Of a stretch of DNA of 10,772 nucleotides, positions 1-10,772 are shown one piece after another. A program made the position numbers and the translations under genes. The stretch lies in the UHGV virus genome UHGV-1443384; one strand, written 5' to 3'. The DNA comes from a virus. Each line of letters starts with the position of its first letter. The first letter of the stretch is position 1. Under the pieces are notes generated by a model. That model was not told where the DNA came from and made no database searches. It saw only the letters and a list, made by a program, of their open reading frames with translations.

Positions 1-82
1 CAGTTATCATCTTCGGTTACGGTTATCGGCAGAACGCCCTGCCGCTGACAAGAGCTTATTTGCCTGACCAATCTACTCCACA

Positions 83-103
83 TGATAGATAACTATCATT
101 TAT
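83..103. repeat. Putative attL core (direct repeat tgatagataactatcatttat)
   Basis: Matches 10561-10581 (tgataaataactatcatctat) at 19 of 21 positions. Arm-type repeats lie on the element side of both copies, as expected for attL and attR. Confidence 0.45.
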
Positions 104-170
104 ATCATTTAGTTAATTAGTCTTTATTTTTCATTATGTTGCAAATAACAAGCCTGTCAAAAACAGTGAT

Positions 171-227
171 ATTAACTACACCATTAACTACACCGCTTCA
201 CGAACAATATCGAACAACCGCGAACAA
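171..227. promoter_or_regulatory. Integrase arm-type binding repeats, left arm (2x ATTAACTACACC, 3x CGAACAA phased at 10 bp)
   Basis: ATTAACTACACC at 171-182 and 183-194; CGAACAA at 201, 211 and 221. The same motif pair recurs at 10417-10484 next to int. Confidence 0.45.
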
Positions 228-267
228 AGATCAACACGCTTTAATCATTATCATTTTCCGGCTATCC

Positions 268-456
268 GTCATGAAGCTAGTGGATGATCTGCGTGGTGAT
301 TTCCACCATTCAGAGCAGGGGCGGTCATCATGCCCATGCCATAACAAAAACCCCATATTCGTGGTTTTTCTGTGTTGTGGCTATTCTGCCGTTGCCGTGC
401 TGGTGGATATTTCCGTTATGGGGATCACCATATCGGCATCATGCCCACCAGCGTGA
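268..456 (+). CDS. Hypothetical small protein (62 aa) with Cys-rich polar N-terminus and a single hydrophobic helix; doubtful
   Basis: ATG at 268 in frame with track ORF 136..456. Hydrophobic stretch IFVVFLCCGYSAVAVLVDISVMGITI. No clear Shine-Dalgarno. Confidence 0.15.
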   Translation, partial: VMKLVDDLRGDFHHSEQGRSSCPCHNKNPIFVVFLCCGYSAVAVLVDISVMGITISASCPPA

Positions 457-1076
457 AGCGTTTTTCATTTTTCGCGGGTATAAAAAATCGATGGGGCTGG
501 CAGTCCAGAAGACGTCAGGGTACAGAGATTTGCCCCGCCCCTCCCTGTGCATAAGCACAATAAGTAACCGAAGGCGGAATTCCGCCCTCGGTACTCACAT
601 ATGAGAAACGATATTTCTTCCACCGATACCCTTTATTTGGGTATCGCGAGTAAGCCCCAAAATCTGGGTGTTACTCTTACTACCCAAACTACGGGTAGTT
701 TCCGTAGTTTCATGGTCGAGTTGCAGATCTGCAACTCACCCACCAGCCAACGCAATTTTGCGTTATCGGGAATATCAGCAAGTTAGCACAGAAATAACTC
801 AGGCAGATACAAAACTCAATTTTGAGGTTTGCTTATTATTCAGTTGGTTAACATCCCTCAAAACTGAGGACTGTACCCAAAGCTATTTTTATAGCTCCGG
901 CCTCAGCCGTTGGCTGTTCCCGAAAATATCAGTCAGTTACGTTAACCGCTAATTTCTGCCTTTGGTGTGAATACTGTCGCTTTAACCTACGGTAATTGTT
1001 CTGCCTCGGTGCGTGTCACCGCCGTAACCGCGCCAGTAAACCCCACAGATTCGTGGTTTTCCTGAATATCAGGAAT

Positions 1077-1358
1077 CTACCGCCGCAACCGTTCCGGCTT
1101 CTTCCACTGGTAAGTATTTTTCGCGCTCTCCCTCCGTTGTTGAGAACGGCGACGGTATGCCAGCAACTCAAGGACTCTTGTTCGTATGTTGCGCATATCC
1201 ACGCCGTTAAGCTCAATACCATCACGGCGCATCACCTCAGCAACAACACGCACATAATTTTCAGCGGTCACGCTGTCCGGCTGTGTGGCCTGTTCGTCAT
1301 GCTGCTGGCTGATTCCGACGACGCGGCGGATTAATCCCAGTAGTTCGGCTTCAGTCAT
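1077..1358 (-). CDS. Hypothetical protein (93 aa), Arg-rich C-terminus, immediately downstream of TerS
   Basis: Track ORF; RBS GAGGG 5 nt before the ATG. Sits where lambda has the large terminase gene A but is far too small and unrelated to it. Confidence 0.55.
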   Translation of the reverse strand: MTEAELLGLIRRVVGISQQHDEQATQPDSVTAENYVRVVAEVMRRDGIELNGVDMRNIRTRVLELLAYRRRSQQRRESAKNTYQWKKPERLRR

Positions 1359-1431
1359 TGTGCCCTCATCGTTCTGATAGCCTGGTGTCGTCGGGTCCTT
1401 CCTGGAATTATGGCCCGTTACGGGGCGGCGG

Positions 1432-1974
1432 TTACTCGCCTTTGTTCTCTAGCAACTTCTCAGGCGCGTTTCCGGTAGTTTCCATCAGGTAATCAGCCAG
1501 TATCTGTGGCAGGTTTTCGTCAAGTCTTGCACATGCGTTACATGCTTTGGCTATTTCCCTTTTTAGTTCATCCAGCATATACGGCCTTATATCGGGAAAG
1601 CGCCTTTGCATTGTGAGCGGGAGGCTGTCCATGATTGATGAAATCTGACTCGCTAGTTTTGAAATCGCGTAGATGCAAAACTTTGTATCAATCACCTCGC
1701 CGCGTTCGCGCTCGTTTTTAAGTTCCTGCGCTTCCGCCTGGGCCGTCATTAATCTGATTCTTACGCGTAAAAGTTCATCATCATCAATCTCGCCTTTGTC
1801 GTTTGTAAGCTGGTTAATTGCATTGTTAACCCTATTGTCTATCACGCTAGCAACATCATAAAACGCCTCACGGCCTTTACGCTCAACGGGAGTTACTCCC
1901 CACTTGTCGAACGCTGTCGCACTTACGCGGCAGCTTTGCGCCATAGTTTTTTTGTTCATCAGGTGCGATTTCAT
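1432..1974 (-). CDS. Terminase small subunit, lambda Nu1-like (satellite TerS / packaging-redirection candidate)
   Basis: C-terminal two thirds align with lambda Nu1 (ours RLMTAQAEAQELKNERERGEVIDTKFCIYAISKLASQISSIMDSLPLTMQRRFP vs lambda RLTRAQADAQELKNARDSAEVVETAFCTFVLSRIAGEIASILDGLPLSVQRRFP). The N-terminal DNA-binding part is diverged. Start chosen at the ATG preceded by GGGGA; the track ORF extends to 1986. Confidence 0.85.
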   Translation of the reverse strand: MKSHLMNKKTMAQSCRVSATAFDKWGVTPVERKGREAFYDVASVIDNRVNNAINQLTNDKGEIDDDELLRVRIRLMTAQAEAQELKNERERGEVIDTKFCIYAISKLASQISSIMDSLPLTMQRRFPDIRPYMLDELKREIAKACNACARLDENLPQILADYLMETTGNAPEKLLENKGE

Positions 1975-2001: not shown

Positions 2002-2150
2002 GGTTGGTGTGTTGGTGTTATCTTTCCCTTTTTATTCATAGAGATAGAGCGAAAAACAAAACCACCACCACCAACCCGAAAAGGCTCATAAATAGCGAAA
2101 ATCCGCAAGGTCGCCGCCCCGTAGCCTGCCGGATCGCCGGAAAGGACCCG
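2002..2150 (-). other. Lambda-type cos site (cosQ-cosN-I1 conserved, cosB-like repeats diverged)
   Basis: Minus strand reads cgttctggctggcgggtcctttccggcgatccggcaggctacg GGGCGGCGACCT tgcggattttcgctatttatgag, near-identical to the lambda right end, the 12-nt cohesive end (plus 2108-2119) and the start of the left end. Inverted ACCACC/GGTGGT-rich repeats at 2002-2019 and 2060-2077 replace the lambda R sites. Confidence 0.85.
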
Positions 2151-4904: not shown

Positions 4905-5131
4905 TTCACCTGTTCACCTTTTGAGATTTTCCCTTTTTATTCATAATGTTAAGGGGTGAACAGTTTCACAAAAACTATTCACCAACTGTTCACCACTGTT
5001 CACCCTTAAAGCTCAATAAATAATCAAAAAGGTGAACAGTGAATAGTTTGGTGAACAGTTCACAAATAACTGTTCACCATATAATATACTGATATAAAAG
5101 ATATTTATAACAGGGTGAACAGTGGTGAACA
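4905..5131. repeat. Replication origin with P4 alpha-type iterons (about 10 copies of TGTTCACC / GGTGAACA, both orientations) and AT-rich unwinding stretch
   Basis: Octamers at 4911, 4955, 4987, 4998, 5031, 5050, 5071, 5114 and 5124, plus partial copies. AT-rich block at 5080-5110. Immediately downstream of the primase gene. Confidence 0.8.
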
Positions 5132-5145
5132 GTTATTCCATAAGT

Positions 5146-10416: not shown

Positions 10417-10484
10417 ATTAACTACACCATTGACTACACCGTGCATCGTACAAGGGCAAACAGTGACGAACAAGGGCGAACAAG
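10417..10484. promoter_or_regulatory. Integrase arm-type binding repeats, right arm (ATTAACTACACC, ATTGACTACACC, CGAACAAG repeats) overlapping the int promoter region
   Basis: Same motif pair as 171-227; CGAACAAG at 10467 and 10477, with degenerate copies at 10446 and 10540-10557. Confidence 0.45.
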
Positions 10485-10560
10485 AAAAACAAAATTTTCC
10501 TTTATAATCATATCGATGAATAAACACAACACACTACCACGAACACCAGCGAACACTAGC

Positions 10561-10581
10561 TGATAAATAACTATCATCTAT
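10561..10581. repeat. Putative attR core (direct repeat tgataaataactatcatctat)
   Basis: 19 of 21 identity with 83-103; lies on the outer side of the right arm repeats. Confidence 0.45.
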
Positions 10582-10772
10582 CGTTGGCATCAGCGACATC
10601 TGTCACATTCCTGTCAATAGCGTTAACTGCTTCAAATTTTTGATTCATACCTGCCCCTTGTCCCCTGTCAAATGCTTGACGGCTCGCCCTAATTCTCTAA
10701 ATTGTATTTCTAGAGTTGGCGAGGTTTTGAACAGCCCCCTCTCTGACCCCGGTTTATTCCATCTTACTTGTA

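What the first reader, a model, noticed from the sequence alone, without database searches (positions are those of the whole stretch)
460..1076. About 600 bp with no credible ORF but dense in perfect palindromes, inside the element near attL
The stretch contains an 8-bp stem hairpin (624-646), a 9-bp stem hairpin (686-710), a 20-bp perfect palindrome GAGTTGCAGATCTGCAACTC (718-737), a hairpin at 750-765 and a GC-rich near-perfect 24-bp palindrome (568-591) that could terminate minus-strand transcripts. This is the end of the island where cargo is usually found. It could encode a structured non-coding RNA, an array of protein-binding sites or a decayed cargo gene.
Basis: seen in the sequence. 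Interest (0 to 1): 0.5.

Follow-up and report, generated by a model that had tools for sequence, protein, structure and literature searches.

The report
Phage-satellite non-coding tail with cos
This gene-free stretch is the far end of a 10.5-kb phage satellite in E. coli and is a patchwork of control DNA: a packaging (cos) site copied from SfV-type phages, a terminator-like hairpin, repeated IHF-site/hairpin units and one very conserved hairpin block of unknown role; it is not a decayed gene.

Summary
Positions 460-1076 have no supported ORF. They hold six perfect-stem hairpin loci against 0.35 expected, and 555-790 folds with z = -8.3 on either strand, against -1.6 for the neighbouring gene.

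The window is a PICI-type satellite between clpS and cspD, bounded by an 11-bp repeat. The stretch lies between its last gene (93 aa, 1077-1358) and attL. It is a mosaic of modules:
- 463-545 is a cos site of the SfI/SfV/phiP27 (HNH-dependent) phage type. Its cohesive decamer is at 493-502, one base off the measured SfI end.
- 567-592 is a GC hairpin that looks like a terminator for the leftward late operon.
- 620-742 is a four-hairpin module. It is about 96% identical across three satellite architectures whose adjacent gene is only 88% identical. It has no Rfam match and I found no paper that quotes it.
- 743-785 and 897-939 are ~43-nt units, each an IHF consensus plus a short hairpin. A Chi site sits at 740-747.

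The cos assignment is solid. For the rest, the best reading is an operon-end insulator and 3'-end structure, and this is inferred, not shown. Covariation is weak and the acting strand is unresolved. Interest is moderate.

The parts
89..99 (.). attL copy of the 11-bp direct repeat ATAACTATCAT. This is context: the left boundary of the satellite.
   Evidence: The same 11-mer is at 10567-10577. The reconstructed empty site is contiguous and 100% identical in many genomes.
463..545 (-). Orphan cos site of the SfI/SfV/SfII/ST64B/phiP27 type. It corresponds to the HNH-terS intergenic region of those phages. On the minus strand the order is HNH side, then cos, then terS side.
   Evidence: 80-93% identity to the genome termini or the HNH-terS spacer of these phages, and to the annotated 'cos-site' of phiP27.
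493..502 (-). Cohesive-end decamer GGGGCTGGCA (TGCCAGCCCC on the minus strand).
   Evidence: It aligns with the annotated 10-nt cos of phiP27 and with the experimentally determined SfI end TGCCCGCCCC (PMC3636060), with one mismatch. The T variant is the commoner one in satellites. All 105 copies next to an SfV-type terS carry G.
567..592 (-). GC-rich hairpin that resembles an intrinsic terminator for the leftward late operon, followed by TACTTATTGT.
   Evidence: Terminator-like scan: 11 pairs, 8 of them GC, loop of 4. The hairpin is kept in relatives with changed stem bases. The T-rich tail is not kept in the L155 lineage.
620..742 (.). Conserved 123-nt hairpin module ('G'). Its hairpins are at 624-646, 648-676 (weaker, bulged), 679-710 (two alternative hairpins) and 718-737.
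   Evidence: Sharp module boundaries in about 150 loci. It is 95.9% identical, against 88.0% for the adjacent gene, in 77 of 77 loci. It occurs in cf-PICI, gpE/gpD/Nu1-type and helper-embedded satellites. Covariation is seen only in hairpin 1.
740..747 (-). Chi octamer (CCACCAGC on the plus strand) abutting the module.
   Evidence: It is one of 11 Chi sites in the window, against 0.28 expected.
743..785 (-). Repeat unit 1: hairpin at 749-764 plus an IHF consensus TATCAGCAAGTTA at 773-785 (read on the plus strand).
   Evidence: nhmmer hit to the unit profile, E = 8e-9. WATCARNNNNTTR match. In L003 the TAA of this unit is the stop codon of the 93-aa gene.
808..875 (.). Inverted repeat 808-827 / 856-875, with local hairpins at 815-826 and 856-869. 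It includes a degenerate unit-like segment.
881..896 (.). Palindrome AGCTATTTTTATAGCT.
   Evidence: also part of the fold.
897..939 (-). Repeat unit 2: hairpin at 904-916 plus an IHF consensus TATCAGTCAGTTA at 927-939.
   Evidence: nhmmer E = 5e-8. IHF pattern.
1038..1079 (-). Degenerate unit directly after the TAG stop of the 93-aa gene, with hairpins at 1043-1056 and 1059-1075.
   Evidence: Direct-repeat families D1-D3. Hairpin 1059-1075.
1077..1358 (-). Last gene of the late operon: a 93-aa protein of unknown function (phrog_1561). It is the only gene always found next to these modules.
   Evidence: All 310 units found lie downstream of it and on its strand.

Best explanation
Positions 460-1076 are the non-coding, int-distal tail of a 10.5-kb PICI-type phage satellite. 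The satellite encodes integrase, primase, lambda gpE/gpD-like capsid proteins, AlpA and a Nu1-like TerS. The tail is not a gene. It is a recombination-built mosaic of cis-acting modules.

(1) 463-545 is a complete cos site copied from SfI/SfV/phiP27-type (HNH-dependent) phages. It should let the terminase of such a helper cut and package the satellite. This adds to the satellite's own lambda-type cos at about 2085-2150.

(2) The leftward late operon ends at 1077. Its transcript would then run through the hairpin units, the 123-nt four-hairpin module and the GC hairpin at 567-592. Together these most likely stop transcription, protect the 3' end of the message, and insulate the cos site, att and (after excision) int, or the cargo genes that relatives carry in this slot.

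(3) The IHF consensus sites and the Chi site are DNA-level accessories, for bending and for protection of cut ends from RecBCD.

Status of each step:
- Shown: the anatomy, the cos homology, the module conservation and the module shuffling.
- Inferred: use of the cos site, termination or stabilisation by the hairpins, IHF binding and Chi function.
For: - Satellite identity and boundaries.
- cos: 83 nt at 80-93% identity to phage termini or the HNH-terS spacer. It aligns with the annotated phiP27 cos-site and the measured SfI decamer.
- cos conservation: it is conserved in dozens of satellite loci, including cf-PICIs that have their own cos-like region upstream of terS.
- Terminator-like hairpin on the operon strand.
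- Excess structure, absent from the adjacent gene.
- Boundary position: in relatives the same hairpin block sits between the operon end and an annotated Abi-family gene (L155), or a stretch that looks coding from the sequence alone (L010/L028).
- Units: all 310 units lie downstream of the 93-aa gene and on its strand.
- Unit hairpin: its stem takes many different self-complementary sequences (CCTCA, CGCA, CCCCC, GCCCA, CCTGC, GTGCA, TTCGCC and others) beside a constant IHF-like motif. Pairing, not stem sequence, is therefore what is kept.
- IHF consensus: 2 of the window's 5 matches are here, against 0.9 expected.
- Chi: 11 sites against 0.28 expected.
Against: - No transcript data exist, so termination or stabilisation is untested.
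- The T-tract after 567-592 is only moderate (5 T in 8), can pair back into an extended stem, and is absent in the L155 lineage.
- A mere terminator or stabiliser would not need near-invariant loops and linkers. Yet 660-664 and 677-685 never vary, even in the lineage that is 77% identical.
- Covariation in the 123-nt module is confined to hairpin 1 (2 pairs, 6 cells).
- G.U asymmetry does not pick a strand.
- The prototype cf-PICI of strain EDL933 seems to lack the module (H181) yet is reported as transferable (bioRxiv 10.1101/2022.09.08.507074). The module is therefore accessory.
- The satellite decamer differs by one base from every phage copy sampled, so use by SfV-type terminase is not guaranteed.
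Confidence: 0.5

Rival explanations
1. The 123-nt module (620-742), perhaps with its flanks up to the 567-592 hairpin, is a dedicated functional RNA. It could be a stable 3'-UTR-derived or independently made small RNA of the satellite that acts in trans on helper-phage or host transcripts, or in cis as a processing or stability element with a specific protein partner.
For: - Very strong predicted structure (z = -8.3).
- On the minus strand it is followed by a terminator-like hairpin.
- It is more conserved than the adjacent protein gene in 77 of 77 loci.
- Hairpin 1 keeps its stem through C-G to U-A and A-U to C-G changes while its loop varies freely.
- Loops and linkers elsewhere are invariant, as expected for recognition surfaces.
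- Its orientation relative to the operon agrees in 166 of 175 cases.
Against: - No Rfam family matches.
- No promoter-like site lies nearby.
- Covariation is weak and most pairs never vary.
- The inner stem of 648-676 is broken in the L155 lineage.
- There is no strand bias of wobble pairs.
- The module is missing from many otherwise similar satellites.
- The exact conserved pattern was not found in any GTDB species-representative genome. It appears confined to one narrow host range, and conservation may partly reflect recent spread.
Confidence: 0.2
2. The palindromes act as double-stranded or extruded DNA. They would be binding sites for packaging or recombination proteins, for example TerS R-like repeats plus IHF sites forming an accessory cosB/cosQ-like region beside the SfV-type cos, or a pause or assembly site for terminase.
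For: - In my sampled loci the SfV-type cos never occurs without the module next to it.
- The module lies 75-250 bp from the cut, on the side from which a terminase moving in the direction inferred from the phage gene order would approach.
- GTAGTTT occurs three times in 686-710, and again at 1475-1481 beside the partial lambda-like cos.
- GTTTCCGTAGTTTC (698-711) matches GTTTCCGGTAGTTTC (1468-1482) except for one extra base (and direct reading).
- IHF consensus sites lie 30-190 bp away.
- The lack of strand bias fits a DNA-level role.
Against: - The module is frequent without any SfV-type cos, and occurs in satellites with unrelated terminases (P27-type or Nu1-type).
- Three different palindromes would need three different proteins.
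- It has no similarity to any phage cos flank.
- The co-occurrence sample is biased, because most loci were fetched through the module or the 93-aa gene.
Confidence: 0.15
3. The modules have no function of their own. They are recombination scars and hitch-hikers in a cargo-exchange hotspot. Their conservation reflects recent horizontal spread and gene conversion between co-resident satellites.
For: - Sharp shared breakpoints at 545, 620, 742 and 785.
- Tandem duplications of the module in several loci.
- Some internal units are preceded by a GCGG-like sequence that resembles the last codons of the 93-aa gene.
- Only two sequence lineages exist, the main one and one at 77% identity.
- Distribution among related satellites is patchy.
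Against: - Neutral DNA would not keep hairpins with compensatory changes.
- Neutral DNA would not stay more conserved than the adjacent coding gene in every locus.
- The IHF-like motif is conserved exactly in the pattern of the consensus: ATCAA and TTA are kept and the 4-nt spacer is free.
Confidence: 0.1
4. The stretch is a decayed cargo gene or encodes a small protein.
For: - Relatives carry protein cargo in this slot.
- A 26-codon ORF (714-634, minus strand) shows a few synonymous-looking changes among close variants (read).
Against: - No Pfam, PHROG or NCBIfam match for any ORF here.
- The 26-codon ORF has no ribosome-binding site.
- It is cut to 13 codons in the L155 lineage.
- It loses its ATG in one variant.
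- It runs on far longer in the cf-PICI context.
- RefSeq annotates nothing here.
Confidence: 0.03

Closest known systems
cos sites of HNH-dependent lambdoid phages SfI, SfV, SfII, ST64B and phiP27
   Same: Window 463-545 aligns over the whole HNH-terS intergenic spacer of these phages. This includes the 10-nt cohesive end (SfI: TGCCCGCCCC) and the flanking GGGAGGGGCGGG and TTTTTATACCCGCGAAAAATGAAA blocks.
   Different: The copy here is orphan, with no HNH or P27-type terminase gene beside it. It sits at the satellite's att-proximal end. Its decamer carries a G-to-T change that I saw in satellites but in none of the 105 phage copies sampled.
Helper-cos carriage by satellites (P4, SaPIbov5, EcCICFT073 with cos1 and cos2)
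   Same: A satellite carries its helper's cos to be packaged. EcCICFT073 also has two cos sites at the int-distal end (PMC6092414, PMC6739421).
   Different: This island combines two unrelated cos types. One is lambda-type, at about 2085-2150, with a partial copy at 1391-1435. The other is SfV/phiP27-type, at 463-545. I found no description of such a combination in the papers read.
BIME / RIP (RIB) elements of E. coli: REP palindromes associated with an IHF site (from my own knowledge of Boccard & Prentki 1993 and Oppenheim 1993; not checked here)
   Same: Both are extragenic and lie after the last gene of an operon. Both have short GC-rich palindromes whose stems change by compensatory substitutions. 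Both have an adjacent match to the IHF consensus and occur in variable copy number.
   Different: The sequence is unlike the REP consensus as I recall it. The units are direct repeats of one hairpin plus one IHF site, not an inverted pair around the site. They were seen only downstream of the 93-aa gene of phage satellites, not dispersed in the chromosome.
Operon-end intrinsic terminators, 3'-UTR-derived sRNAs and the lambda sib retroregulator
   Same: A structured RNA region follows the last cistron and ends in a GC hairpin with a T-rich tail. It lies next to att, so its context changes on excision.
   Different: No transcript evidence, no RNase III or Hfq evidence, and no family match. In sib the hairpin lies downstream of int across att. 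Here int is transcribed away from att.

Membership tests
SfI/SfV/phiP27-type cos site | Sequence homology to the phage HNH-terS intergenic region | tested here: met
   83 nt at 89-93% identity to 720R4, SfII and ST64B, and 80.5% to phiP27.
SfI/SfV/phiP27-type cos site | 10-nt cohesive-end sequence at the aligned position | tested here: met
   493-502 is GGGGCTGGCA, against GGGGCGGGCA in SfI and 720R4 and GGGGCGGGCG in phiP27 (9 of 10 and 8 of 10). L003 and other satellites carry the exact phage decamer.
SfI/SfV/phiP27-type cos site | Lies between an HNH gene and terS/terL of the P27 family | tested here: not met
   There is no such gene within the island. The neighbours are hairpins on one side and att on the other. 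It is an orphan copy.
SfI/SfV/phiP27-type cos site | Cleaved by terminase to give cohesive ends | not testable with these tools
   Needs end-sequencing of packaged DNA.
Intrinsic (Rho-independent) terminator | GC-rich stem-loop followed by a U-tract on the transcribed strand | tested here: inconclusive
   567-592 on the minus strand has 11 pairs, 8 of them GC, and the tail TACTTATTGT (5 T in 8). The tail can pair into an extended stem and is A-rich in the L155 lineage.
Any described RNA family (Rfam 15) | Covariance-model match at or near the gathering score | tested here: not met
   Nothing in 440-1100 better than E = 1.8, with scores far below gathering.
Structured non-coding RNA (generic) | Base pairs supported by compensatory changes across homologues | tested here: inconclusive
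   2 of 35 pairs have double changes, both in hairpin 1. 21 pairs never vary. 1 of 500 shuffles reached the observed value for percentage paired, and 2 of 500 for the covariation score. The sequences are about 94% identical.
Structured non-coding RNA (generic) | A transcript with defined ends | not testable with these tools
   No expression data. No promoter-like site in 460-1076.
BIME/RIP-like extragenic palindromes with an IHF site | Match to the IHF consensus WATCARNNNNTTR beside a palindrome | tested here: met
   Sites at 773-785 and 927-939. Across 89 unit variants ATCAA and TTA are conserved and the spacer is free. Binding itself was not tested.
BIME/RIP-like extragenic palindromes with an IHF site | REP consensus sequence and dispersal around the chromosome | tested here: not met
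   All 310 units lie downstream of the satellite 93-aa gene. No phage hits. The stems bear no resemblance to REP as I recall it.
Protein-coding cargo or small toxin gene | Conserved ORF or protein-family match | tested here: not met
   No matches. The candidate 26-codon ORF is not conserved.
Lambda-type cosB (R elements plus IHF site) | TerS-binding R repeats at a fixed distance from a cosN | tested here: inconclusive
   GTAGTTTC repeats in 695-711 resemble 1468-1482 beside the partial cos. However, there is no lambda-type cosN within 600 bp of the module.

The most novel reading that the evidence does not exclude
The 123-nt module (620-742) may be a so-far undescribed, satellite-specific functional nucleic-acid element. 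It could be a structured RNA that acts on the helper phage or host, or a DNA element that controls packaging or ejection. It is exchanged as a cassette among at least three families of E. coli phage satellites. Together with a 'portable' heterologous cos site, it would form an accessory kit that widens the range of helpers a satellite can exploit.
Probability: 0.2. Interest if true: 0.7.

Novelty: new variant of a known kind. Interest (0 to 1): 0.42.

Why it matters
Phage satellites are major vehicles of gene transfer and defence systems in E. coli, yet their non-coding ends are barely described.

Two points would interest specialists. First, satellites of several architectures carry an extra phage-identical cos of the SfV/phiP27 type, beside their own packaging signals. 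This suggests that cos sites themselves circulate as accessory modules that broaden helper range, and transfer assays can test that directly. Second, a 123-nt hairpin block is kept more strictly than the neighbouring protein gene. By my estimate it is present in roughly one E. coli genome in eight. It has no annotation, no Rfam family, and I found no mention in the searchable literature.

If it proves to be a functional RNA or a packaging element, it would add a new component to satellite biology. If it is only an operon-end insulator, the region is ordinary.

Tried and rejected
- Rfam scans of the whole window and of 440-1100 with lax thresholds found nothing relevant.
- A full-text search for four of the hairpin sequences found no paper.
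- The PICI, cf-PICI and HE-PICI papers do not mention this region.
- I looked for distant homologues to gain covariation power. The protein-guided scan of species-representative genomes confirmed nothing. The exact conserved DNA pattern gave 0 matches there. The metagenome scan gave 76 loci, but only the same two lineages.
- I tried to infer the strand from G.U versus A.C asymmetry in the module, the units and the GC hairpin. There was no consistent bias.
- Small-protein idea (26-codon ORF at 714-634, and the 61-aa ORF at 601-786): not conserved and no family match.
- MITE or mobile-element idea for the module: reading, I saw no terminal inverted repeats and only a dubious CCAC flank.
- I tested whether the 93-aa neighbour might explain the hairpins. 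It has no Pfam, NCBIfam or PDB sequence match. The AlphaFold model is all-helical with pLDDT 69, and no Foldseek hit has E < 1. A visual likeness of its basic C-terminus to the arginine-rich motif of lambda N gave no BLASTP alignment.
- The Nu1-like TerS has no PDB sequence match, so it is not a close relative of the crystallised Rpp.
- I first took 1391-1435 for the satellite's lambda-type cos. The complete one is on the other strand, at about 2085-2150.

Full report
**Context.** The window is a phage satellite of the PICI kind, inserted between clpS and cspD of E. coli. An identical copy in strain WP9-S17-ESBL-11 is annotated with, all on the minus strand:
- a tyrosine integrase;
- a D5-type primase;
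- an SSB pseudogene;
- a lambda-E-like major capsid protein;
- a lambda-D-like decoration protein;
- an AlpA-type regulator;
- a Nu1-like small terminase;
- a final 93-aa hypothetical protein at 1077-1358.

Joining window 1-88 to 10567-10772 recreates an empty site that is contiguous and 100% identical in many genomes; 5,057 of 5,426 hold the site in one piece. The 11-mer ATAACTATCAT is present at both junctions. The finding (460-1076) is therefore the stretch between the last gene of the leftward late operon and attL.

**The observation.** Six perfect-stem hairpin loci lie in 460-1076, against 0.35 expected from dinucleotide shuffles. Five lie in 560-770, against 0.12. Folded as RNA, 555-790 has z = -8.3 on either strand and 786-1080 has z = -4.6. 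The adjacent coding gene has z = -1.6. None of the mechanical ORFs has a Pfam, PHROG or NCBIfam match. RefSeq annotates nothing between 457 and 1076.

**The left end is a cos site.** A sensitive search of the phage collection matched only one part of the region. Window 463-545 hits the extreme ends of the SfII, SfV, SfIV, SfI and ST64B records, the HNH-terS spacer of related phages, and the annotated 'cos-site' of phiP27, at 80-93% identity. In the alignment, the 10-nt cos of phiP27 falls on window 493-502, and the SfI record ends exactly at 493. The SfI cohesive end was determined experimentally as TGCCCGCCCC (PMC3636060). The window has TGCCAGCCCC on the minus strand, one mismatch.

That T variant is the commoner form among satellite copies; a minority carry the exact phage decamer. 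In a sample of 117 newly fetched viral contigs holding the motif, all 105 copies next to an SfV-type terS had the G form. The copy here is orphan, with no HNH or P27-type terminase gene in the island. The same orphan cos also occurs in capsid-forming PICIs. L004, a cf-PICI without it, has its own differently sequenced cos-like region upstream of terS. I read it as an accessory, phage-derived cos.

**The satellite's own cos sites lie elsewhere.**
- A nearly lambda-identical cosQ-cosN is on the minus strand at about 2085-2150, just upstream of the Nu1-like terS (compared with lambda ends).
- A partial copy, cosQ plus the left half of cosN, is on the plus strand at 1391-1435. This recalls cos1 and cos2 of EcCICFT073 (PMC6092414).

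**The rest is a mosaic.** BLAST of 100-1450 against about 150 related loci shows recurrent sharp breakpoints at about 412, 462, 545, 620, 742 and 785 and at 1056-1064. The modules are as follows.

*F, about 546-619.* This carries the GC hairpin 567-592, the only terminator-like site on the operon strand. The hairpin persists in relatives with changed stem bases. Its T-rich tail is lost in one lineage and can pair into a longer stem.

*G, 620-742.* This holds hairpins at 624-646, 648-676, 679-710 and 718-737.
- It matches in 1,194 of 5,426 complete E. coli genomes when part of the flanking unit is included. From evenly spaced rows of the ranking, about 700 genomes hold the full module.
- It occurs downstream of the 93-aa gene in three satellite architectures: the gpE/gpD/Nu1 type (this window; L003; L155, which sits inside a prophage capsid gene), capsid-forming PICIs (L004), and a helper-embedded PICI inside a terminase gene of O157:H7 (L154).
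- It is 95.9% identical on average, against 88.0% for the neighbouring gene, and is the better conserved of the two in all 77 loci that have both. Part of that sample was fetched through an exact match to its 20-nt palindrome, which biases the figure upward.
- Only two lineages exist, the main one and one at 77% identity.
- The conserved core pattern was not found in any GTDB species-representative genome.

*Repeat units, about 43 nt.* On the operon strand they read TAAC-NNN-TTGATATTYYCG-N-AAC, then a 5-6-bp hairpin.
- In the window they lie at 743-785 and 897-939, with degenerate copies at about 806-846 and 1038-1079.
- Related loci carry one to five.
- All 310 found are downstream of the 93-aa gene and on its strand.
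- Read on the plus strand, the constant part is a perfect IHF consensus (WATCARNNNNTTR at 773 and 927).
- Across 89 variants ATCAA and TTA are kept while the four spacer bases vary. The hairpin stem takes many different self-complementary sequences.

*Chi.* A Chi octamer (740-747, minus strand) abuts G. It is one of 11 Chi sites in the window, against 0.28 expected.

**Is G an RNA?** On 33 distinct variants, 96.4% of cells pair. However, 21 of 35 pairs never vary, and only two pairs, both in hairpin 1, show changes on both sides (C-G to U-A, and A-U to C-G). Non-Watson-Crick cells split as 30 that would be G.U on the minus strand, 14 that would be G.U on the plus strand, and 12 true mismatches. 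The divergent lineage points partly the other way. The units and the GC hairpin show no strand bias either.

The loop of hairpin 1 varies freely. In contrast, the loop 660-664 and the linker 677-685 are invariant even in the divergent lineage, which points to sequence-specific recognition beyond simple hairpins. There is no Rfam match, no promoter-like site, and I found no paper that quotes the sequences. The evidence fits a structured nucleic-acid element but does not establish RNA rather than DNA, or which strand acts.

**What it most likely does.** In relatives, the slot between these hairpins and att carries an Abi-family gene in L155, or a long stretch that looks coding from its sequence in L010/L028 (not annotated here). 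In this island it holds only the orphan cos. After excision, the leftward late transcript would run through this region, across attP and into int in the sense direction.

My best account (confidence about 0.5) has two parts. The hairpin units, G and the GC hairpin form the structured end of the late operon. They would terminate or attenuate transcription, protect the 3' end, and insulate cos, att, int or cargo. The orphan cos, IHF sites and Chi sites serve packaging by a second helper type and protection of cut DNA ends. Only the anatomy, homology and conservation are shown. Each functional step is inferred.

**Rivals.**
- G is a dedicated trans- or cis-acting RNA (0.2).
- G is a DNA-level packaging or recombination accessory (0.15). 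In my biased sample the SfV-type cos never occurs without G beside it. The GTAGTTTC repeats of hairpin 2 resemble a sequence next to the partial lambda-like cos.
- The modules are functionless recombination scars and hitch-hikers (0.1).
- The stretch is a decayed gene or encodes a small protein (0.03).

**Comparison with known systems.**
- The cos part belongs by sequence to the SfI/SfV/phiP27 cos family, but as an orphan copy outside its normal gene context.
- Satellites carrying helper cos sites are well known (P4, SaPIbov5, EcCICFT073). None of the papers I read describes two unrelated cos types combined in one satellite.
- The IHF-site-plus-palindrome units behave like BIME/RIP elements: extragenic, at an operon end, with compensatory stems and an IHF consensus. 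They share neither the REP sequence nor chromosome-wide dispersal.
- G has no described counterpart.

**Verdict.** The feature is real and only partly explained. One fifth of it is a recognisable cos site. The rest is a conserved but functionally unassigned set of hairpin modules. Interest is moderate.

Noticed in passing
window 2085-2150 (minus strand), with 1996-2082: A nearly lambda-identical cosQ-cosN (CGGGTCCTTTCCGG...CTACGGGGCGGCGACCTTGCGGATTTTCGCTATTTATGA) lies directly upstream of the Nu1-like terS. The inverted GGTTGGTG repeats that follow (1996-2082, which gave the spurious mir-3910 Rfam hit) look like its cosB. The annotated 69-aa ORF 1974-2183 overlaps all of this and may not be a real gene.
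   Followed up: partly
window 1391-1435 (plus strand): A second, partial lambda-like cos (cosQ CGGGTCCTT plus GTTACGGGGCGGCG) lies between terS and the 93-aa gene, in the opposite orientation to the first. This resembles cos1/cos2 of EcCICFT073. Several related loci carry an inverted second copy of 1392-1430 about 1 kb away.
   Followed up: partly
whole window: 399, 445, 740, 4554, 4580, 5460, 6143, 7663, 8426, 9502, 10274: There are 11 Chi octamers (GCTGGTGG) in 10.8 kb, against 0.28 expected from shuffles. That is about 1 per kb, against 0.49 per kb in the 14 kb of chromosome flanking the island. By the known polarity of Chi (my own knowledge), sites 399-406 (+) and 740-747 (-) flank the SfV-type cos in the orientation that would halt RecBCD entering from either cut end.
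   Followed up: partly
window 133-160 (minus strand): A strong sigma-70-like promoter match (TTGACA, 16 nt, CATAAT; 11 of 12) lies inside the island and points outward toward clpS, whose start codon lies just left of the window. It might drive clpS-clpA after the insertion displaced upstream sequence.
   Followed up: no
window 171-240 and 10417-10560: Repeated arm-type motifs near both att ends: ATTAACTACACCATT (171-185 and 10417-10431), and runs of CGAACAA-like repeats. These are probably integrase or excisionase binding sites.
   Followed up: no
window 4960-5140: Iterated GTTCACC/TGGTGAAC repeats and a 12-bp-stem palindrome (5049-5079) lie next to the primase gene, with an IHF consensus at 5082. 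This is probably the replication origin. It gave spurious microRNA Rfam hits.
   Followed up: no
L155 6117-6878 (NZ_CP145668.1): A satellite of the same type is inserted inside the major capsid gene of a lambdoid prophage. It carries an 'abortive infection family protein' gene between att and a 77%-identical copy of the hairpin module. This shows that the slot is a cargo site.
   Followed up: partly
L012, L022, L034, L051, L153, L164, L189: The 123-nt hairpin module occurs twice in tandem, 300-450 bp apart, in these loci. Truncated copies lacking hairpin 1 occur in L011 and L034.
   Followed up: no
window 493-502 versus loci L238-L354: The cohesive-end decamer of the orphan cos is GGGGCTGGCA in most satellites. 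It was GGGGCGGGCA in all 105 sampled copies next to an SfV-type terS. The satellite and helper ends would therefore differ by one base.
   Followed up: partly
window 1077-1358: The 93-aa protein (phrog_1561) is the one gene always next to these modules, in three satellite families. It is predicted to be all-helical, has a basic C-terminus with invariant Trp85, and has no sequence or fold relative with a known function.
   Followed up: partly
window 271-456: One RefSeq genome annotates a 61-aa ORF with a hydrophobic segment as a hypothetical protein. It has no family match and contains a copy of the hairpin repeat also found at 1038-1064.
   Followed up: no
window 806-833: A 28-nt exact match to several Klebsiella phages (E = 5e-4), inside or near Rha-family or hypothetical genes. 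It could be chance or a shared hairpin.
   Followed up: no
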